This document shows positions 606-63,571 of a DNA stretch of 64,000 nt, piece by piece. The notes below the pieces were generated by a model. The model saw only the letters and a list, made by a program, of their open reading frames with translations. It was not told the DNA's origin and did not search any database. The position numbers and the translations under genes are program-made. The stretch comes from Eledone cirrhosa (taxonomy: Eukaryota): NCBI GenBank assembly GCA_964016885.1, contig OZ024743.1:146320001-146384000 (forward strand), given 5' to 3'. Within the stretch, counting starts at the first letter, position 1; every line of letters starts with the position of its first letter.

Positions 606-700
606 AGTAATACATGTATGCAAAAAGTAAACAGAAATAACAAAGCAAACAACACAGTACAATGAAGAAATATATTATTTTAACTCTTGATATAGTAGGA

Positions 701-745
701 AAAGAGTTTTTACATTTCAGACACTAGTCCTTCATCAGAAGAAAT
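701..745 (-). ncRNA. Degenerate minimal type I hammerhead motif in a PLE-like pLTR fragment (~620-830)
   Basis: Minus strand reads CUGAUGA-A-GGAC(UAGU)GUCU-GAAA-UGUA; stem I pairing is weak. The 3' tail of the same family recurs at ~32135-32198. Confidence 0.5.
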
Positions 746-1009
746 AAAAGTTGAAATAGAAAGATAAAGAGTGAGAAGAGGAAGGAACAGAGAAATAATT
801 GAAAAAAATAGCATGTGTGTATTCAGTCAGCCATTTTACTTTGCTTGTTTTGAATTGTAAAATCCATGCATTAATGGAAGGGGATTACATACATGTAGGT
901 GTGTATATATGTAAACATTTCTATTTAAAACTAAATGAAGATATATCTTGTGATATTTCCATCTGCTTTTTAATGTTGGCATTTATTGGCTTGAGTCAGT
1001 TCTTATTTG

Positions 1010-1250
1010 TTAACCTTTTATCATAAAAAACAGCCGTGTCTGACCAGAATTCTATCCCCTCTTTCTATTCCAACCAGCCTTAACCGGCTGCTTATACCAA
1101 TGTTAAGGTATTGTTCTCAAAATAAATTATATCAAAATCTCATAGATTCGATATTATGTGAGATAATTATGTGAGGTAAAGCCTTTACTGTGAAAATATG
1201 ACAGTATATATTATAGTATATATATAGTAATGTAAATACTAAAGGGTTAA
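1010..1250. mobile_element. piggyBac-type MITE (other copies 2149-2724, 2869-4270, 19336-19913)
   Basis: Family TIR CCCTTTAGCATT...AATGCTAAAGGG (degenerate in this copy) bounded by TTAA at both ends; four homologous copies, three with nested insertions. Confidence 0.8.
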
Positions 1251-1270
1251 ATGACTATGACCCACTCATA

Positions 1271-1437
1271 TGAGGGTGGGCTGAAAAGTTCATAGGCTGA
1301 CTACGAAATTTTGTATGCATTAATTTAAACTCTTCTTATTAATAACTGCATTGTTTCTTTCCAGGGACTATGTTGAAAAATAAACCCCATTTGGTCATTC
1401 CATGGGAATCAGTCTATGAAATTTTCAGCCGACCTTG
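1271..1437. mobile_element. Mariner-derived MITE (opposite-orientation copy 19978-20175)
   Basis: TIR TGAGGGTGGGCTGAAAAGTTCATAG / CTATGAAATTTTCAGCCGACCTTG flanked by TA. Confidence 0.7.
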
Positions 1438-1714
1438 TATGATCCAACTTTTGGCATGGTTTGTATGGCTGGATGTTCTTAATTATCATCCTTTAATGTC
1501 TGTTTTCCCACCCAGCAATGGTTGTGACCTGATCCATCCCTGTGATCCCCACTTTCACTAGCACTTCCGAACTGCTATCCTCACCCTCACTGTACCCCCC
1601 CCCCACCCCAGTAGCACATCTTTGCTACTCTCTTCTTGTAAACCTGTAGATACTCTCACTAACACACCCTTGTAGCTACTCTTTCTACCCCTTAGTTATT
1701 TTTCCATCACTACA

Positions 1715-1970
1715 CTCTATATGCATATGGGATTTAATTTCTGGGGGAAAAAGTGCCAAGAAATCCCAGTGGAAGGAAGCTGCAGTAAAGGAAGACCAAG
1801 GATGACCTGTGCAAAGGTGTTTAGAGATGACCTCAAATTGCAGAAGTTCACTGAGGAGATGATGAAGGAACGTAATGAGTGGAGAGACGCTGTGCTGAAA
1901 AAGGCCTGTCCAACCCATGCAAGCATGGAAATGTGGATGTAAAATGATGAGGGTAATGATGATGATGATG
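1715..1970 (+). mobile_element. RTE LINE 3' end fragment
   Basis: KKCQEIPVEG..GRPRMT..DDLK..EWRDAV peptide followed by (GAT)n tail. Confidence 0.8.
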
Positions 1971-2347
1971 AATCCTGATTTGATGTTGTCAGAAAATAAT
2001 TTATTGTGAATTCTGTCTGTTTACATCAAAATTACGACACATATGTGCTATAAAAAGTTTGGCTGTTGTTTCTAGCGTTTTTTCAGACAGTAGAGTTATA
2101 TGATTTAGTGAAGACTCCTCCTTCAGTATTTGTTTCCTTGTACCTTTCTTAACCTTTTAGCATTTAAACCAGCTGTATCTGGCCAGAATTCTCTCACTTC
2201 TTTCTGTTCAAATTGGCCATAACTGGTCACTCATACTGATGTTAAGGTATTGTTCTCAAAATAAATAATATCAAAATCTCATAGATTCAATATTATGTGA
2301 GATAATTATGTGTGATAAAACCTTTATCACAAAAATAAAATAGTATT

Positions 2348-2689
2348 CATTTCATTTCATTTCATTTTACGTCCGCTTTTTCCCTGCTTGCAAGGGTGGG
2401 ACGGGAACTGATTTTGGCTTGATTTCTACAGCTGGATGCCCTTCCTAACACCAACCTCATTTACAGTGAGTGCTGGGTGCTTTTTTGCCATGGCACCTCC
2501 ACGACCACTTTGCAATGGAATGATAGGGACCCCAGTCCCTATCATCTCATTTCTACAGCTGAGTAAACTGGAGCAATGTGAAATAAAGTGTCTTGCTCAA
2601 GGAAACAACACATCACCCGGTCTGAGAATTGAACTCACAACCTTTCGATTGCAAGGCCAATGCTCTAACCACTAAGCCAAGTGCCTCCA
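2348..2689 (-). mobile_element. tRNA-derived SINE family A with RTE-derived 3' tail (copies 18798-19143 -, 19371-19718 +, 35981-36320 +, 63236-63573 -)
   Basis: Head GGAGGCACATGGCTTAGTGGTTAGAGC (A box) and GAGTTCAATTCTC (B box); tail ...GCAAGCAGGGAAAAGCGGACGTAAAATGA shared with the RTE end at 16966-17035. Confidence 0.9.
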
Positions 2690-2986
2690 GTATATGTAGA
2701 GTAATGTCAATGCTAAAGGGTTAATAATGCATGTTTTAAATGCATATTTTCAGGGATGCATTTTTAAAAGTGTAGACTAGATTGATGAAATTAATGTTTT
2801 TTTTTACTTAATTCAGAAACATTTTGCATAATTTAGGAAACCCTCAAATAGTTGCATGATGAAGTATTTTAAACCTTTAGCATTTAAACCCACTGTATCT
2901 GGCCAGAATCCTCTCACTCCTTGCTGTTCAAACTAACCGTAACTGGCCACTCATACTGATGTTAAGGTATTGTTCTCAAAATAAAT

Positions 2987-3178
2987 AATTGTTTCTACTT
3001 TTGGCACAAGGCCAGCAATTACGCCAGTATATTACTGGTACCTTATTTTATCGACCCCGTAAGGATGAAAGGCAAAGTTAACCTCGGTGGGAATTGAATT
3101 CAGATCATAAAGAGGCGTAACTCTATGCTACAAAGCATGGCGTCCGACGCTTTACTGATACTGCCAATCCACCGCCCT
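2987..3178 (-). mobile_element. tRNA-derived SINE family B with Nin/Deu-type central domain (also ~21070-21405, 22821-22925, 27080-27240, 33541-33985, 39140-39275, 57486-57663)
   Basis: TGGCAGTATCGGTAG A box, GAGTTCAAATCCC B box, core GAGGTTAACTTTGCCTTTCATCCTTACGGGGTCGATAAAATAAAGTACCAG; the 57486 copy has an ATTATACAA target duplication. Confidence 0.85.
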
Positions 3179-3230
3179 CAAAATAAATAATATCAAAATC
3201 TCGTAGATTCGATATTATGTGTGATAATTA

Positions 3231-4201
3231 TCTATATATATATAAAATAGACTAGGTGTGTGTATCTGTTTCCACATAACTTCTACAACTTGCAACTGAT
3301 TTTCTTCAAATGTGGCACAAACATGCATTATGTTACTGACCTTCGTACGAACTCATTACATTTTCAAATTTCTGTCTACTGCGCCCTCTATAAAAGAACA
3401 ACCGACTAAAAAAAAAATCATTTTTGTCAATAACTTCTACAGTTTACATCCAATTTCCTCCAAATTTGGAACAAACATGCATTATGTTCCTGACTTTATT
3501 TTGGACTCATAACATTTTGTTTGGTGCACCCTCTGGACCAAAAAAAAAGAATAAAAAAAACCCCTCATCATTATAACACCTACAGTTTGCAACCGATTTC
3601 CTTCAAATTTAGAACAACTATGCCTCATGTACCAAACATTATTTTGGACTAACCGATTTTTCGAGTTTTTATCTAATTCGGGCCCTGTGTGAGAAAAACT
3701 ATATTTAAAAAAGTATCGAGTTCAATAACTTCTACAGTTTACAGCTGATTTAATTCAAATTTGCACAAATTATGCATTGTGTTCTGTTTAATATTTTTTA
3801 CTCATAACATTTTAGTTGTTCTGCATACTGTAGTCCCTAGTAGTAGAAAATCAACTCAAACGGCCACCTCAATTGCATGGTTTACTGCTTGGTCCATGCG
3901 AGTTTATCGATTTTTCACCACTGGCATAGCATGTGATGCATTTCATAAGACATCGGTTGTACCAGAAAAAGCTTAACTGGTGAAAAAGAGTCAGAACGGA
4001 TCTATTGAAAAAGTCCCTGCCAATGGTTAGCAACAATAACACCAGGTGTTACTGGTTTATTTTTTTCACCAAAGAAGTAGGTCACAAACTACAACCTATG
4101 TTTCCGCTCCATGTGTGCAACTCACAATCATATTTGATATTTTATTTATACGTGTTACTACACTTTTGAAGTTTAATTTTTCCAATCCCATGCACTGCTA
4201 G
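3231..4201 (+). mobile_element. Non-autonomous Helitron
   Basis: Starts TC, ends CTAG, inserted between A and T of the piggyBac MITE with no TSD (compare the empty site GATAATTA|TGTG at ~1162-1175); internal degenerate ~130-150 bp repeats. Confidence 0.8.
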
Positions 4202-4442
4202 TGTAAGATAAAGCCTTTACCACAAAAATAGAATAGTATATATAGAGTAATGTAAATGCGAAAGGGTTAAGTGTATCCCACAGACTCTTGTACCCCTAAT
4301 ATAATATTGGGGCAGAATAAGCATAACATTGTGTGTATCAAGGCTGATACTTTGAAATACAGGTATAGTCCATTGAATAAGCTTCTACACAGTTTTTACT
4401 TAGTCAGATTTACTCACAACGCTTTAACCCAGGCCACTAAAC

Positions 4443-4811
4443 CAGAAGTTCTCAAACTTTTGGGGCCAGCACCTGCCAGACCATGTAACACCTTCAGCAC
4501 CTGCCAGACCATGTAATACCTTCAGCACCCCCCACCCCTATTTCCAGAGAGACCTGCCTACACACAAATTGTAAATATATAATAAAATAAATCGTTAATT
4601 TATATATAATAAATAATATGATATATACAATGTATAAATAAATATTATATATTTTTTATTTGACTATATTTATATATAATATGTATCATTTGATATTTAA
4701 TATACTATTATATCATCTCTACCATCCTCCACTGCCACATTAGGCCTCAGCGCCCCCTGGACTTTCTTAATGCCCTTCAAGGGTTGGTAGGGCTCACTTT
4801 GAGAACTTCTG
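4443..4811. mobile_element. hAT (Charlie-like) MITE
   Basis: TIR CAGAAGTTCTCAAA...TTTGAGAACTTCTG, 8-bp TSD CACTAAAC/CTCTAAAC. Confidence 0.85.
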
Positions 4812-5218
4812 CTCTAAACCAATGTACTGTATTCAATGGGTTTGAACCTGTGATTTTATGATTCTAATGCAAACTACACCATTCAGTCATGTTTGTACCG
4901 TATTTTACAAGAATGCTTCCAGACAAAGTTACTTAATGATATGAACATCTCTGACTTTTCTGTACATTATCATTGAGTAAAGATAGAATTGGATCTAATA
5001 TTAATAGCATTTACTCTGGTTATTGCCTCAAACATAAAACACTTATTGAACATTTTTCTATATTTTTCATTCTTTTATGTTTAGATACGTTTTGCTATTT
5101 TATGAAAAAAACGAAACAAAACAAAAAAATGTGTAAAAGTGTATCTATGAAAGTATATGTGAGCATGTCTGAGAGTTGATGAAGAATACCTCTTCATTGT
5201 GTCTTCTGGTATTATTGT

Positions 5219-5290
<72 letters not shown>

Positions 5291-5351
5291 CATATATATA
5301 TATATCACCATCATCATCATTTAACATCTATTTTTCCATGGTTGCATGGAC

Positions 5352-5387
<36 letters not shown>

Positions 5388-5514
5388 TATATGTGTGTGT
5401 GTGTTTGAGTCTATTTGTATATTTATGTGTGTGTATATATATATATATAAATATATGTATATAAATATACATATAGGAATATATATGTTTCTGCATATAA
5501 ATATATATATATAT

Positions 5515-5560
<46 letters not shown>

Positions 5561-5662
5561 ATGTATGTATGTATATATATATATTGATATATATATATAT
5601 TGATATATATATATATTGATATATATATATATATATTAATATATATATATATATATATATAT

Positions 5663-5762
<100 letters not shown>

Positions 5763-5833
5763 TAAAATAACAGATTAAAGTTTAAGGAAAGAATCGCTGC
5801 TTATATATATATATATATTGATATATATATATT

Positions 5834-5960
<127 letters not shown>

Positions 5961-12279: not shown

Positions 12280-12903
12280 TTAATTAGGTTTATAATATTT
12301 AAATGTTTTTTTTAGTTTATGATTACACGATATAATTAATTCCTGTCGTTTATTTAATAGGATATCCTTAGATTTCATTATTTCAAATAGTTCTTGGGAA
12401 CATAATCTACATTCATTTCTATTATTTTGATAAGGGGTGGCTCTTTTGAGCACACTCCAGGTCAAATCATATTCTATATTCTTATTTTTATAACTATTGA
12501 TTTTTTCTGCTAGAGATGTTGTATTAGCCAGTGCGGCATTTTTAAAACTATGCTTGTGGGTATTAAACCTTGTCTTAAAATTGTTAGAGGTAGCTCCTAT
12601 ATATGAGCAAATAGAATCTTTAGTTTTAACATTACATTTATAGACTATGTTGTTAACAAGACAATTCCCTTTTAATGGGCAGTTTGCTTTGTTTCTACAG
12701 TTACAACCTTTCGTTAATTCTGTATTTGAGGAGATATTATGGTTAATTTGATGTACTGGTGGTATACTTATGGTTTTCTTACATTTATATGCATTATAGG
12801 CACTTATATTTTGTTTTATGTTATTTGTTGTAGAGTATGAGAATTTAACTGTAGACCTATTTAAGATTTGATGGTATTTGTGGTTTGGCGGGAAGTTTTT
12901 CTC
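12280..12903 (-). CDS. PLE polyprotein C-terminus: linker, Cys motif and GIY-YIG endonuclease (open frame, 5'-truncated, no start codon)
   Basis: Manual translation [24 protein letters not shown]...[24 protein letters not shown]...[20 protein letters not shown]...CRLCSQE...[14 protein letters not shown] with no stops. Confidence 0.9.
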
Positions 12904-41097: not shown

Positions 41098-41657
41098 GCT
41101 GGATTCTTACAGAATACCTTGATAACTGCTAAACAGCGAGAAACGATCGTCAGTTATTTCCTTTGTTTTTGCTGAGCTACGTAAGTGACTAGCTAGCTAT
41201 GTGACTATAGTCACTACATTAAATTCATAACGAAAAGCCTTCAAAATGTTTTAAAATAAACATACAGTATATTATTAAACATACAATATGTACATTCATA
41301 TATACATAACTATTTCAGAACTCCAACACAAATTTCTAATTGTTGCTGGGTCAGCAATCGCTCTGTATGTTAATGAGTTTAAACCACTCATAAACATAAT
41401 TGGTATTCTGTAAGAATCCAGCTTCTACAGCTGACACCAAAAGCAGTGGTGATATATAACCTTGATAACCGCTAAACAGTGAGAAACGATCGCTGGTTAT
41501 TACCCTTTGTTTTTGCTGAAGTATGTGACTATAGTCACTACCTTAAATTCATAGCGAAAGGCCTTTCAAAATGTTTTAAAATAAAGATACAGTATATTAT
41601 TAAATATACAATACGTACATTTATATATACATCGCTATTTCAGAGCTCCAATGCAAA
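41098..41657 (+). mobile_element. Retrozyme-like element: 343-nt unit, ~1.6 tandem copies, 21-bp inverted 5' cap
   Basis: Repeat starts 41118 and 41461; 41098-41118 is the reverse complement of 41402-41422. Confidence 0.8.
41116..41157 (+). ncRNA. Minimal hammerhead with U3:A8 core (second copy 41456-41500)
   Basis: Two-copy consensus AUAACC-UUGAUAA-C CGCU(AAAC)AGCG A-GAA-ACGAUCGU-C-GGUUAU. Confidence 0.72.
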
Positions 41658-41673
41658 TATATATATATATATA

Positions 41674-44600
41674 TCATCATCATCATCATCATCATCGTTT
41701 AACGTCTATCTTCCACGCTAGCATTGGTTTAGATGGGAATTGCCCCACTTGAGGCAAGGTTGGTCGTCTCGCTCATATGGGACTGTCTGGCAGGTTTTCT
41801 ACGGCTGGATGCCCTTCCTAACACCAACCACGTTTACAGTATGGACTGGGAGGTTTTTACTCTGTTACCTACAAGGCCACATTACAGCGTGGACTGTGTG
41901 TTTTTTTGTCATGACACCTACACAACATCATTTATTTAGGACTGGATGTTGTGGTACCAACATAACTTTACAGAGAAAGGGGCGGTGTTGATGGGGGTGG
42001 GGGAGTTGGGGGGGGGGTAATGGGAGGGGTGTGGGTGTATATTTGATTAAGAGGTACCTACTGACTGTAGGTTTCACTTTGTACATAGGCAAGGCGGGTT
42101 TTCTGTATTACTGCGTAGCGCCAAAGATCTCGGTCCAGTGACATTGTCTTGGAGAGGTGTAAGTGTGTAAGGTCGGAATTTATCAAATCGTCCCAGGTTT
42201 TTCTGGGTCTGCCTACTCCGTAACTTCCGTCAATTTTGATCGCCCTGCACTTTTTTTATACAGCTGTCATCTTTCATGCGCATTACGTGACCATATCAAC
42301 ATAGTCTTCTCTCGAGTAAACAGCATCTGATCCCTCTTATTCCTAATTTCTCACTTAGTTCATTTATGCTTTGCTGTTCACGTATATTACTATTACACAT
42401 CCAGCGGAGCATGAATGCTTCATTCCTCTCCAGTCTGCACAGATCCTCTGCACACAATGCCCATGTCTCACTGTAATGTAACATAGCTGTTCGTATGCAG
42501 GCATCATACAGTCTGCCTTTCATTTTTAGAGAGAAACCTTTAGTGGCCAATAATGGTATAAGCTCTCTGAACTTTTTCCATCCCATTCTGACTCTGGCTA
42601 CTGTACTTTCTGAGCACCCTCCACCACTGCTGATTTTATCACCCAGGTAATGGAAGGTGTTCACTATTTCTATAGAGCCATCTGGGCAATAGAAGGAGCT
42701 AGTATCCAGTGGGCACTTGCTACTTATTGCACCTGAGCACCGGCCACATATAAAATCTACGTTCTTAGATAGCTTACCTGTGATCCCACTACATCTTTTA
42801 TGCACCCATACTTTGCATTTGGGACATAAAATGGAATTTCTGCCTACTCCTTTCTTACACACTGAGCATGGCCATTTCCCAGAGGGGACCTGTGCCCTAT
42901 TTTCCTTCCTACATACTAGAACTTTAGTCTTAGACAAGTTAATTTTAAGGTCTTTTGATTCTAGGCCATGCTTCCATGTTTGGAATTTCTTCTCTAGTTC
43001 AACCATCGATTCAGCTATGAGCGTTAGATAGTCTGCATAGAGAAGTTCCCATGGGCAGCCGGTCTTGAACTCCTCTGTTATTGCCTGAAGGGCAATAATA
43101 AATAGGAGGGGGCTAAGGACAGAGCCCTGATGGACACCAACTTTTATGCTAAATTCTTCACTATATTCGTTGTTAATTCTAACCTTGCTGACTGTTTCTT
43201 TATACATGGCTTGTATAGCTCTCACAAGCCATTCATCAACCCCTAGTTTTCTAAGGGCCCACCAGATAATGGCGTGGGGGACTCTTTCAAATGCTTTCTC
43301 CAAGTCATCAAAAGCTAAGTATAAGGGTTTACTTTGAGCCAGCTACTTCTCCTGTAGTTATCGTACAAGGAAAAGGGCGTCTGTGGTACTTTTACCCGAC
43401 ACAAACCGAAACTGCATTTTGTCTAGATCAATTTGCTCTCTGATTAGTTGCGCTATAACCTTTTCTGTGACCTTCATGACATGGTCAATTAATTTAATAC
43501 CTCTATAGTTTCTTCTATCTAGTGCATCTCCTTTACCCTTGTAGCAGTTAATGATGATGCTGCTACGCCAGTCATTTCAGTCATTTGGTATGACCCCGTT
43601 CTGTATGACTTGGTTAACTATCCGGGTGACCATAGTGTGTCCCACCGTTCCAGATGCTTTCAGCATTTCAGCAACTATCTCCGAAGGCCCAACTGCCTTG
43701 CCTGTCTTCATATCTTTGATTGCCTTACTTATTATACCTTCAACTTGCACTGCTGGTCGCTCTATTGGATCGATGTGGGACAAACTATCTTTGTCCCATT
43801 TATTCTCCATATTTAGTAGCCTCTCGTAGTGACACTTCCAAGCTACATTCTTACCAGCGTCAGTGATGGCAAGTACGCCATCATCATTACGGACACACTT
43901 CTCCCCGACAATATCATGGTTTTCCTTGACACATTGCCTAGCAATCCTGAACACCTCACCTTTTTGGTCCTCGCATTGTAGAACATGCTTGAACTGTCTT
44001 TCCTCTGCTTCCCTTCTTGCAAAGTACACTTGTCTCCTAGCTTCCCTCCTGGCCACTTGATAGTCTTCTCTACTTCCCCCATTCCGCCTGCTTTTTGGCC
44101 TTAATTGACTCCTCCACCTTACTGTTCCACCACCACGTTACTCTCCTCCTGCCTATAGGCCTGCTCCAGCCACAGATTTCATCTGTTGCCTTCAGCAGGT
44201 TAACTTTCAGGAATTCCCACTGTTCCTCTATATTGTGCAACTCTAATTGCTCTTCCTTACTGTCAAAAGCATCAAGTAATATGCTTTTAAATTTGTTACT
44301 GGCTGTGGGGTCCTTTAACTTCCATATTCTTCTCCTTAGGGTAGTCCTCCTCTGTTGTCGAGTACGTCTCATCCTGACTATGAGGTTGCTAACTATGAGG
44401 CTATGTTGGGAGGTGCATTCTTCATGGGGGAGGGATTTAGTGTTTACAACAGACACTCTGTCATGTCTTCTGGTAAGGATATAATCTATCTGACTGGCAT
44501 GTTCCCCTGATCTATAGGAGATCAAAGGATTGTCTTGTTTTTTGAAGTTAGTGTTACAGATAGTTAGGTTATTTGTGTCACAGAATTCCAGGATTCTGGA

Positions 44601-57899: not shown

Positions 57900-59068
57900 G
57901 CCCCGTTCCCGTCTTTTATCACTGTATATTCATTTTCTAACTGATCCACCTTATATTTCAGGACATGGCAAATGCAATATCTGAGAAGGTAACAAGATGC
58001 CAATTAAAGCTCCGGCACCAGATTTTTTGTGTGAACCACTACTATAGTGTGGCTTGTACAAACAGGTCCAGCAGCAATTTGATGCATTTTTTGAAATGGA
58101 CAAATCTTCCTTCAAAACCAATATAGAAAACTGGGTGAAGAAGTATAAGACATATGGGACTGTGAAAAGCCTAAATACAATGTCTGAAAACTGTCCCACC
58201 CATTCTGGACAACCCAGGAAGCGTACACAGGAAGTTATTGACATGTTGGAGAAGTCAATCCTAGGCTCTCCCCACAGATTACAGATGGGTTGTCAAGAGG
58301 ATTTTAAGAAGTGCCCCTACAGAATATAGACTAAATAAAAGCTTGCCGTAGTTGATAAGACCAAGAGAAAGATTATGGCTGAGAAAATGTGCAGAAGATG
58401 GAAAACAACCCCAAATTTTATGAATCTACCCTGGACCTTTGATGAAGTACATTTTCACTTAGAGGATAAGATCAACTCTAAGAATAATGTGTCTGGCGGA
58501 GTCAGAGACACTCACTGAAGTGGTTGTGAAGTCTCTTCACTTGGCTAAATGAACTGTCTGGGTTGCTATTTCCGAGAGGGTTGACAGCCCTGTCATCTTA
58601 GAAGAAAATGGTGTCACTGCTACAGTCACAAAGAACACTATGTGGAGGTTCTGAAAGATTTCAAAAAATGAGCTGCAGACCATGTTTATATCTAATGAAT
58701 AAGTTCTGGTTCCAGTAAGATGGAGCAAGTGTTTACACCTCCAATGAGTCATGAGAATGGCTGAAAAATAACTTTGGAAATCATGTGATCAGTTTTAAGA
58801 CTGATTTTGCATGGGCCTCACACAGCATTGATATAAACCCACCAGATTTCTTTCTTTGGGTCTATCTGAAGGATAAGATATATGTCAACAAACTCAGGAC
58901 CATCACTGAACTAAAGGGAAACATCAAGGTGGAGACCAGAGCTATCCCTAGGTCTGTTTGTAAAGTCATTATGCTAAATTTCACCATGCCCCTCAAAAAA
59001 GGCACAACAGGAACTACCAAAGAATCCCTGATTAGCAAAACATACCCCTCTAAGAAACACCCACTGTA
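57900..59068 (+). pseudogene. Decayed Tc1/mariner (maT/DD37D-like) transposase element
   Basis: FDEVHFHL..INSKNN, DGA-like, W..HSIDINPPDFFLWVYLKDKIY motifs; right end GAAACACCCACTG-TA. Confidence 0.8.
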
Positions 59069-59076
59069 CTAATAAG

Positions 59077-59457
59077 AAACGTGTTATATGTAGAATAAAT
59101 CCACAAATAAATTGTAAAACGAGAAATGTAATCTATAGCATAAGATGTACAGAGGGTGCTTGCAGAAATATGACAACGACATACATAGGTGAGACAGCTC
59201 GGAGCATAGGGGACAGAAGAGACCAACACTAGGGTGAACTAAAAGGACAAAAAGTCAGTTCAGTACTATATGAACATGCAAGACAAAGGCAGGATAGTAA
59301 TATAGACAACATAGAAATTAAAATAATATCTAAACATAGAAATTACTCAACAGGTAGACAAATCAGAGAAGCAACTGAAATAGAACTAAGAAAACTGAAG
59401 TTGAACAGAAAAAATGAACGGAATAACAACAACAACAACTATACTCAAACACAATAG
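59077..59457 (+). pseudogene. PLE GIY-YIG endonuclease fragment (Neptune-like), one internal stop; missed by the ORF track
   Basis: Manual translation CKTRNVIYSIRC..C..YIGETARSIGDRRDQH*..SVLYEH..RQIREATEI..LNRKNE. Confidence 0.85.
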
Positions 59458-61879: not shown

Positions 61880-62264
61880 AAATGCAGTACTGGATATTTC
61901 AAAAAACGTTGCAACCGGAGGAAGACAGGAAGACGATACTTTGGTTCGTGGTAACGTTCGCTGGCAAAGAACGGGAAAAAACGAATATAATACGTCATTA
62001 ATAGGAGCGGTGAAAAACAATTACGTGCAAGAACAGAACCACGTTTATGGTATAAAAGAGGTCGTAGACTAATGTTCTCTAAGTGGTGCATAGAGACGTT
62101 CTCTGGCAATGAACGAAAAAACGAAGATAATAAGTCATATGTGGAGCGTGGAGAACAATAGCACGCAAAGACAAAACCACGTAAATGGTATAGCAGAAGT
62201 TGTAGACTAAAATTCTAACTAGGAGACCGAATGAATCTCCGCTACAGAGTTAAGAACAAAGTAA

Positions 62265-62298
<34 letters not shown>

Positions 62299-62367
62299 AA
62301 AAAGAGATGAAATCGAAAATGCAACTGGAGTCTTATTTTAAAAAAAAATATATTTATTTATTTGGTT

Positions 62368-62405
62368 CCTTTACCGGTTTCGCAGTTCTTCTGCTTTTCA
62401 AAAGG
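62368..62405 (-). ncRNA. 38-nt minimal hammerhead with U3:A8 core in a ~400-bp TA-flanked element (62295-62690)
   Basis: CCUU-UUGAAAA-GCAG(AAGAA)CUGC-GAA-ACCGGU-A-AAGG. Confidence 0.8.
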
Positions 62406-62828
62406 TGAGTTGAGATGGAGGGTCTGTGGTTTTTCTCACATCTGGTTGGTCTCTGAATGTTACTTGTTTTATATGGAAAAAGTGGCTCGAAATGCCAGGT
62501 TTTTCGAGAAGTAATTTGATTGGTTTGTCAATAATTATAATAAATTTCGCGCCAGTTCGCGTTACAATAGTTCTTCAAATAAGAGGGAGGGGGGGGGGGG
62601 GTTGTCACAGGTTGTTTTTTCATATATGAGTGTTTGAATTTCTTTTTACTTGAAAAAAGGAGGCTCACGAAGGCTTTTTTTTGGTTGGTTATATATATAT
62701 ATATATACACATATATGTTCCACCACACCATGAACAGATTGGTCACATCACCAGTGAGGCTGATGCCATTGGCTGCCTCCTCTTCTTAGATGTATGTTTT
62801 ATTATTGAACTTAAACACATAGCCCCCT

Positions 62829-63110
62829 CGCTATGTTGATGATATCAATATTGTAGTAAAAATACCCCTACAAGAGAGTACCCATGGATCAGAACTAGAA
62901 GCTTGCACCATGGGGAGCATCCAGCAAATAGCTAACTCCATCTACCAGAGCATTAAAGTAACAGTAGACCACCCCACTAAACACCCCAATCGCAGACTGC
63001 CCATGTTAGACACAGAACTCTGGATGGAAACTAAGAATGATAAGGTCCAAATCCTCCATTCACATTATACCAAACCCATGGCCTCAAAGTATCTGATCCA
63101 CCAGAGTTCA
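62829..63110 (+). pseudogene. PLE reverse transcriptase fragment
   Basis: RYVDDINI...IANSIYQSIKVTVDHP..RLPMLDTELW..HYTKPMAS in one frame. Confidence 0.85.
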
Positions 63111-63571
63111 GATCTAGTTGTCAAAATGGCCGGAGCTCAGTCCTGACTCTTTTCCTATTATTACCCACTCTACTACCCTAAGTATTGAGTACTCTGGTGT
63201 GTTATGATTCATCTGTAGCCATATATGTATATATTATCATCATTCATCATTTCATTTTACGTCCACTTTTCCCTGCTTGCAAGGGTGGGACAGGAACTGA
63301 TTCTGGCTTGATTTCTACAGCTGGATGCCCTTCCTAACACCAACCTCATTTACAGTGAGTGCTGGGTGCTTTTTTGCCATGGCACCTCCACGAATGATAG
63401 TGGAATGATAGGGACCCCAGTCCCTATCACCTCATTTCTACAGCTGAGTAAACTGGAGCAATGTGAAATAAAGTGTCTTGCTCAAGGAAACAACACATCA
63501 CCCGATCTGAGAATTGAACTCACAACCTTTCGATTGCAAGCCCAATGCTCTAACCACTAAGCCATGTGCCT

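What the first reader, a model, noticed from the sequence alone, without database searches (positions are those of the whole stretch)
62368..62405. 38-nt hammerhead with an independent U3:A8 covariation
Seen: every helix pairs perfectly (CCUU/AAGG, GCAG/CUGC, palindromic ACCGGU), the site is GUA, and the core is UUGAAAA. The sequence is unrelated to the 41.1 kb U3:A8 family. Inference: the compensatory double change suggests selection for catalysis, probably as a dimer.
Basis: partly seen in the sequence, partly recalled or inferred. Interest (0 to 1): 0.72.

Follow-up and report, generated by a model that had tools for sequence, protein, structure and literature searches.

The report
Variant hammerhead of a Penelope retrotransposon
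This 38-letter motif is one of over six thousand identical copies of a predicted self-cutting RNA at the end of a young jumping gene, and its unusual base pair is already in print; the odder case is a sister jumping gene with over eleven thousand copies that has changed a core letter thought to be needed for cutting.

Summary
The motif is real, on the minus strand (62405 to 62368): a minimal type-I hammerhead with U3:A8 core, 6-nt palindromic helix III and GUA site. It sits in a 5'-truncated, (TA)n-flanked end fragment of a young Neptune/Nematis-type Penelope-like retroelement (PLE); 6,285 genomic copies match its first 32 nt exactly. U3-A8 is published for natural hammerheads (2011) and for PLE hammerheads (about 1,300 in Schistosoma, 2014), as are the palindrome and the dimer model; this scan has noted U3-A8 hammerheads before, in this genome too. 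Across families the 3:8 pair does covary (45 of 48 motifs in 1 Mb are C:G or U:A), and U3:A8 needs two changes on the protein tree. Independence from the 41.1-kb family could not be placed. Against plain 'selection for catalysis': the sister lineage (11,259 matches) keeps the palindrome but has A13 replaced by C. Cleavage untested. Known kind; low interest, one testable lead.

The parts
62368..62405 (-). Minimal type-I hammerhead motif, U3:A8 variant (U3 = 62401, A8 = 62396, G12 = 62381)
62402..62405 (-). Stem I, 5' strand (pairs with 62368-62371); the fourth pair is present only in the youngest subfamily
62382..62394 (-). Stem II (4 bp, G10.1-C11.1) with 5-nt loop
62373..62378 (-). Palindromic helix III half, predicted to pair with a second copy
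62371..62372 (-). Predicted cleavage site, after A17 (62372) of the GUA triplet
   Evidence: hammerhead numbering applied; cleavage not tested
62296..62696 (-). 5'-truncated 3'-end (pLTR) fragment of a Penelope-like retroelement, 95-98% identical to ends of longer copies; short form of the 3' end
62268..62295 (.). (TA)n tract at the element's 3' junction (likely target); a shorter TA tract follows at 62693-62716 at the 5' junction

Best explanation
This is the minimal hammerhead motif in the terminal repeat of a young Penelope-like retrotransposon, here in a truncated copy without the protein gene, and in full-length elements it likely cuts the RNA after GUA when two copies pair through the palindrome. 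Shown: the motif; its place about 1.08 kb behind the RT-endonuclease frame and, in full-length copies, again about 170 nt before the first ATG; thousands of near-identical copies; (TA)n junctions; frequent back-to-back inverted copies. Inferred: a transcript that runs through two terminal repeats (or two transcripts) forms the 6-bp helix III and is cut, freeing a unit-length RNA; the element's own protein may help. U3:A8 keeps the 3:8 Watson-Crick pair of the active site and was fixed once in an ancestor of this lineage, not at this locus. The window copy has one motif and no partner nearby, so it is probably inert. My odds: about 0.97 for the identity, about 0.6 that the master element's motif cleaves as a dimer.
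For: Repeat of about 400 bp, 1,799 first-look candidates, the other 40 full-length matches listed 96-99% identical. 6,310 matches with positions 3 and 8 free, control 0. Longer copies carry an RT plus GIY-YIG-type frame upstream on the same strand; many have a 775-codon open frame; Pfam RVT_1 E 1e-6, 29.0 bits, just under its 29.6 cut-off. Same-direction 5' hammerhead in 8 of 30 loci with 1.5-kb flank. 27 divergent pairs among the first 100 listed matches, 20 with gaps of 118 bp or less. Census of 100 x 10 kb with positions 3 and 8 free: C3:G8 36, U3:A8 9, U3:G8 2, A3:A8 1; reversed control 1 hit, two shuffles 0. Stem II shows a compensatory change in the sister lineage and the palindrome is kept. 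Published: U3-A8 in about 1,300 Schistosoma PLE motifs, palindromic helix III, weak cleavage only as dimer or trimer (PMC4209133, parts 1-2 of 4 read); U3-A8 natural and active in vitro (PMC3088659, passages).
Against: No cleavage data for this sequence. The sister lineage spread to 11,259 matches with C at position 13 (97 of the first 100 listed) and a stem I of three U-A pairs, and its predicted fold hides the core, so catalysis may be dispensable in this clade. In the lizard PLE PAc, hammerhead mutants did not affect insertion in vitro, cleavage needed the protein, and no RNA-seq ends mapped to the site (PMC11167929, passages). Stem I is 4 bp here and 3 bp in older subfamilies. The two terminal motifs of a full element lie several kb apart.
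Confidence: 0.6

Rival explanations
1. The motif is a hammerhead-shaped structural signal whose catalysis is weak or no longer needed in this PLE clade; stem II and the palindrome are kept for RNA pairing or protein binding, and U3:A8 and later C13 are steps of tolerated erosion.
For: Sister lineage with fixed C13, 11,259 matches, linked to a related endonuclease frame (52% identity; 99/99 support with this family); its predicted fold is not a hammerhead but the palindrome duplex survives. PAc results (PMC11167929); low in vitro activity of minimal motifs (PMC4209133).
Against: The family at 62.4 kb keeps every core base, and its youngest subfamily has gained a fourth stem I pair. Across families 3:8 stays Watson-Crick, as the active site requires. 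In the sister lineage the rest of the core is still intact.
Confidence: 0.25
2. The motif cleaves as a monomer, with the element's protein holding the single A15.1-U16.1 pair and CCGG loop; the palindrome is incidental.
For: Protein-assisted cleavage of the PAc hammerhead (PMC11167929). Terminal motifs are far apart in full-length RNA.
Against: Monomer helix III is unfavourable by 5.4 kcal/mol; helix III is palindromic or nearly so in the families seen (note that the descriptor asks for this, the looser listing does not).
Confidence: 0.12
3. This copy has been recruited by the host at this locus and is selected here.
For: The window copy is intact at all 38 positions.
Against: 6,285 copies are just as intact over the first 32 nt; the copy is 95-98% identical to other ends, so intactness reflects youth. 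The window is dominated by repeats.
Confidence: 0.02
4. Chance match in AT-rich repeat DNA.
For: Folding z-score only -0.94; no Rfam hit.
Against: 3 hits in 100 window shuffles at a lower threshold than its score; it sits where PLE hammerheads are described; related lineages keep the fold with a compensatory change.
Confidence: 0.01

Closest known systems
Minimal hammerheads in pLTRs of metazoan Penelope-like elements, including the U3-A8 variant of Schistosoma Cercyon elements (Cervera and De la Pena 2014, PMC4209133; parts 1-2 of 4 and a supplement search read)
   Same: Type I, short stem I, G10.1-C11.1, palindromic helix III, dimer architecture, location in both terminal repeats, mostly solo truncated copies, U3-A8 core in over a thousand copies.
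   Different: Here stem II is only 4 bp, there is no extra base after A9, helix III has a 6-nt palindrome (as in their 'small palindromic helix III' group), the site is GUA, and the host element has a CX4CxxC linker and two overlapping frames.
Natural U3-A8 hammerhead core variants (Perreault et al. 2011, PMC3088659; passages read)
   Same: Same double change, described there as compensatory and active in vitro.
   Different: The passages I saw do not place those examples in PLEs or in this animal.
Neptune/Nematis-type EN+ PLEs (Craig et al. 2021, PMC8557442; passages read)
   Same: C-terminal GIY-YIG-type endonuclease with CX2-5CxxC linker, 5' truncation, inverted 5' copies, optional tail; the Fig. 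1 legend lists (TA)n targets, hammerheads near the 3' end and an ORF1 separated by a frameshift, without my seeing which clades carry which.
   Different: The optional 3' extension here is about 65 nt, not 30-40. Neptune versus Nematis was not resolved with reference sequences.
Hammerhead of the Anolis PLE PAc (Frangieh et al. 2024, PMC11167929; passages read)
   Same: Hammerhead in the pLTR near the start of the coding region; 3:8 pair matters for cleavage.
   Different: PAc is a Poseidon element with C3-G8, and its motif overlaps the start codon; here it lies about 170 nt upstream of ORF1.

Membership tests
Type-I hammerhead ribozyme | Core U4 G5 A6 N7 A9, G12 A13 A14, A15.1-U16.1, H17 | tested here: met
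Type-I hammerhead ribozyme | Watson-Crick pair at 3:8 | tested here: met
   U3:A8 rather than C3:G8; published variant
Type-I hammerhead ribozyme | Three helices around the core | tested here: inconclusive
   Stems I and II form in prediction; helix III only between two copies
Type-I hammerhead ribozyme | Rfam hammerhead model at gathering score | tested here: not met
   I did not run the E-value mode, and the motif is shorter than canonical ones
Type-I hammerhead ribozyme | Site-specific self-cleavage | not testable with these tools
   needs an in vitro assay
PLE minimal hammerhead | Located in the terminal repeats of a Penelope-like element | tested here: met
   3' copy behind the RT-EN frame; same-direction 5' copy in 8 of 30 loci
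PLE minimal hammerhead | Palindromic helix III | tested here: met
EN+ Penelope-like element (parent) | RT with DKG motif followed by C-terminal GIY-YIG endonuclease with internal Cys pair | tested here: met
   RVT_1 E 1e-6 just under cut-off; DKG and GIY-YIG-type motifs read by eye; Pfam gave no GIY-YIG hit
EN+ Penelope-like element (parent) | 5' truncation, tandem and inverted terminal repeats, optional tail | tested here: met
   34 long, 19 short, 1 other of 54 3' ends in 60 partly overlapping loci
Neptune or Nematis clade | CX2-5CxxC linker before the endonuclease | tested here: met
   CX4CxxC in the frame; feature from PMC8557442
Neptune or Nematis clade | Phylogenetic placement with named reference elements | not tested
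   no reference PLE proteins were fetched
Non-LTR retrozyme | Non-coding tandem units of 170-400 nt, each with a hammerhead | tested here: not met
   solo end fragment of a coding element

The most novel reading that the evidence does not exclude
One PLE clade records a stepwise dismantling of the hammerhead active site: canonical C3:G8 in an outer relative, U3:A8 in this family, then U3:A8 plus C13 and a weak stem I in the sister lineage, which still reached over 11,000 copies. If the C13 motif does not cleave, a highly successful retrotransposon kept the hammerhead's stem II and dimer palindrome without catalysis, a natural test of whether PLEs need their ribozyme; if it does cleave, A13 is not invariant in a U3:A8 background.
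Probability: 0.3. Interest if true: 0.55.

Novelty: new member of a known kind. Interest (0 to 1): 0.24.

Why it matters
The motif itself adds one more family to a described class. Its use is as one member of a matched natural series in a single genome (C3:G8 relative, this U3:A8 family with four subfamilies, C13 sister lineage) on which the open question of what PLE hammerheads are for can be tested with three short RNAs. It also shows that searches demanding CUGANGA and GAAA miss a large share of such motifs: in 1 Mb, 9 U3:A8 hits plus 9 C13 sister motifs against 36 canonical ones.

Tried and rejected
Rfam gathering scan: no hammerhead hit. The RT fragment next door (62720-63095) as parent: rejected, it belongs to another PLE family and is not shared by other copies. 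Within-family covariation: none; 17 copies differ at 3 (all A8), 8 at position 8 (all U3), 0 of 6,310 C3:G8. Selection read from the family: positions 3 and 8 vary less (12.5 per site) than six free sites (35 per site), but seven essential core sites vary as much (39 per site, including a CpG guanine), and base type was not controlled, so I draw no conclusion. A C3:G8 or U3:G8 ancestor inside the family: a looser pattern gave 45 G8 copies, 43 U3 and 2 C3; in the subfamily holding both C3 copies only 11 of 1,142 have G8 and 20 of 20 inspected are U3:A8, and partner copies at several G8 loci have A8, so these read as decay; the 2 double changes are more than I would expect by chance among 11 but too few to call relics. 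Search for canonical cores with the same palindrome: 101 matches against 154 in the control, useful only as leads. Parent of the 41.1-kb family: no linked protein gene in 30 loci. The 25-row tree did not finish its careful search and was weakly resolved; I rebuilt with 11 of the 25 rows after seeing it. Sequencing runs: no RNA holder listed. Lunse et al. 2016 on PLE hammerhead variants is not held; I saw only its citation in a review, and it may already list U3:A8 or position-13 variants. Paper searches: 'hammerhead' + 'U3-A8' gave 1 paper; 'hammerhead' + 'A13C' gave 1 irrelevant paper; that is the only search for the C13 variant. One of the two listed supplements of PMC4209133 could not be searched.

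Full report
OBSERVATION. The 38 bases at 62368-62405 read on the minus strand as a type-I hammerhead: stem I CCUU/AAGG, core U3-U4-G5-A6-A7-A8-A9 (U3 = 62401), stem II GCAG/CUGC with a 5-nt loop, G12-A13-A14, the palindrome A15.1-CCGG-U16.1 and A17, so the predicted cut lies between 62372 and 62371. Stems I and II appear in the predicted monomer fold, though the energy is unremarkable (z -0.94). Helix III cannot form within one molecule: a 2-nt loop is disallowed, a single A-U pair costs 5.4 kcal/mol, and two palindromes give a 6-bp duplex of -8.3 kcal/mol. Rfam has no hammerhead hit at gathering score. With a scored descriptor the motif gets 29; 100 block-shuffles of the window gave 3 hits at 22 or more in all.

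WHAT IT BELONGS TO. The motif lies in a 400-bp piece (62296-62696) between TA tracts. The 3.0-Gb host genome holds 1,799 first-look candidates for it; the other 40 full-length matches listed are 96-99% identical. The first 32 nt of the motif, with positions 3 and 8 left free, match 6,310 times (control 0). [quoted passage not shown] Many copies keep a 775-codon open frame. In 8 of 30 such loci a second hammerhead in the same direction lies upstream, its cut site about 170 nt before the ATG of a 400-codon ORF1. Among the first 100 listed matches, 27 back-to-back pairs within 4.2 kb were counted by hand (one further pair 4.9 kb apart left out). The 3' end comes in a short and a long form (19 and 34 of 54 ends, 1 other); the window copy is the short form. 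These are described traits of EN+ Penelope-like elements, and the linker points to Neptune or Nematis (PMC8557442, passages); I did not place it with named references. The window copy is a 5'-truncated solo end with no second family motif found in the window.

IS U3:A8 SELECTED? Within the family the pair is simply inherited: 6,285 exact copies, 17 changed at 3 only, 8 at position 8 only, none C3:G8. Freeing six unconstrained sites adds 209 copies (35 per site); freeing seven essential core sites adds 276 (39 per site, one of them a CpG guanine). Older subfamilies (about 79-92% identical in the flanks) also carry U3:A8; in one, 11 of 1,142 have G8, 2 of them C3:G8, which I read as decay but cannot fully exclude as relics. 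Across families the pair does covary. In 100 stretches of 10 kb at round coordinates, mostly on the large contigs, a descriptor with 3 and 8 free found 48 motifs at score 22 or more: 36 C3:G8, 9 U3:A8, 2 U3:G8, 1 A3:A8; reversed sequence gave 1 hit and two shuffles none. These are copies of roughly ten canonical and three U3:A8 families by eye, not 48 independent events. U3:A8 is thus a common state in this genome.

IS IT INDEPENDENT? The 62.4-kb and 41.1-kb repeats share nothing by blastn (best E 0.097), but that does not date the variant, and no protein gene was found for the 41.1-kb family. For families with proteins, a tree of 11 rows (chosen from 25 after a first, unfinished tree) puts this family next to a C3:G8 family (L044/L130) and far from a second U3:A8 family (L104); the label needs two changes in all 200 bootstrap trees, and an AU test rejects one U3:A8 clade (p 0.003). 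Without a root this is two gains or an older U3:A8 with reversions, and deep branches are long. Repeated switching is therefore supported; independence from the 41.1-kb family is not placed.

A RESULT AGAINST THE SIMPLE READING. The nearest lineage on the tree (L140, 99/99 support) has the homologous site with U3:A8, a compensatory change in stem II and the same palindrome, but G12-C13-A14. The pattern matches 11,259 times (control 0); 97 of the first 100 have C13, 2 A, 1 G. Its stem I is three U-A pairs, and the predicted fold sequesters the core while the palindrome duplex remains. A13 is part of the stated consensus core (PMC3088659 and PMC7151607, passages). Either A13 is tolerant in this background, or this lineage spread without a working ribozyme. 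The latter fits the lizard element PAc, where hammerhead mutants did not impair insertion in vitro and cleavage needed the protein (PMC11167929, passages). One paper search for this variant found nothing relevant, and the most relevant paper (Lunse et al. 2016) is not held.

MECHANISM. Best reading: in full-length elements the motif is present in both terminal repeats; two copies pair through the palindrome and the RNA is cut after GUA, releasing the element's RNA from a longer transcript, perhaps with help from the element's protein. Location, copy structure and conservation are shown; pairing is predicted; cleavage is inferred from published relatives, where dimers and trimers cleaved weakly and monomers not at all (PMC4209133). 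I give about 0.97 to the identity, 0.6 to dimer cleavage, 0.25 to a structural role without needed catalysis and 0.12 to protein-assisted monomer cleavage. No RNA run holding the stretch was listed, so expression was not examined.

COMPARISON AND NOVELTY. U3-A8 was reported as a natural, active covariation in 2011 (PMC3088659) and in about 1,300 PLE minimal hammerheads of Schistosoma in 2014, with the palindrome and dimer model (PMC4209133). Earlier notes of this scan list U3-A8 hammerheads in this and other genomes (unchecked AI notes); none matched this sequence. Other papers opened: bioRxiv 10.64898/2026.07.22.740005 (part 1 of 5), PMC6765202 (passages), PMC3846280 (passages), PMC7229834 (passages). 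The finding is a new member of a known kind. Interest 0.24; the lead worth a bench test is the series C3:G8 relative, this family, C13 sister lineage.

Noticed in passing
L140, L269-L278 (e.g. G000:C1:5077048-5077076); sister PLE lineage: Homologous hammerhead site with U3:A8, compensatory stem II and the same palindrome, but C at position 13 in 97 of the first 100 of 11,259 matches, and a stem I of three U-A pairs; missed by descriptors that demand GAAA.
   Followed up: partly
L169-L198, parent element: A 400-codon ORF1 overlaps the 775-codon RT-endonuclease frame at a U-UUU-UUA heptamer in the register of a -1 ribosomal frameshift; 26 of 30 loci keep six T, 1 has seven (frames fused), 3 did not match. 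A frameshifted ORF1 is mentioned for PLEs in the Fig. 1 legend of PMC8557442. That this heptamer is a slippery site is recalled knowledge; untested.
   Followed up: partly
window 41116-41674, +: The 41.1-kb family: two U3:A8 motifs 343 bp apart, 8-nt palindrome, 2,192 first-look candidates, best other matches 83-89% identical, partial tandem and inverted copies, no protein gene found; retrozyme-like.
   Followed up: partly
L104 (G000:C4:320000001-320010000), 662-5892, -: Full-length PLE of a different clade with U3:A8 hammerheads in both terminal repeats; further U3:A8 motifs in L122, L080 and L149.
   Followed up: partly
window 15117 (-), 23108 (-), 55610 (-), 738 (-): Canonical C3:G8 hammerhead candidates; the first two pass the scored descriptor, the last two only the loose one.
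   Followed up: no
L125:9752, -: A high-scoring U3:G8 motif with a near-palindromic helix III; single copy seen, family state unknown.
   Followed up: no
C1 matches listed: Back-to-back copies cluster at gaps of 69-75 bp (11 of 27 pairs), which suggests a preferred truncation or template-switch point just upstream of the hammerhead.
   Followed up: no
window 62720-63095; 59032-59403; 12283-12900: Fragments of other PLE families: an RT piece with an inverted part, and two GIY-YIG-type endonuclease pieces.
   Followed up: partly
window 63507-63564 (-) and 2621-2680 (-): tRNA-like Rfam hits just over threshold, probably heads of a tRNA-derived SINE.
   Followed up: no
window 61954-62210: 138-bp tandem unit, 1.8 copies, part of another repeat.
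   Followed up: no
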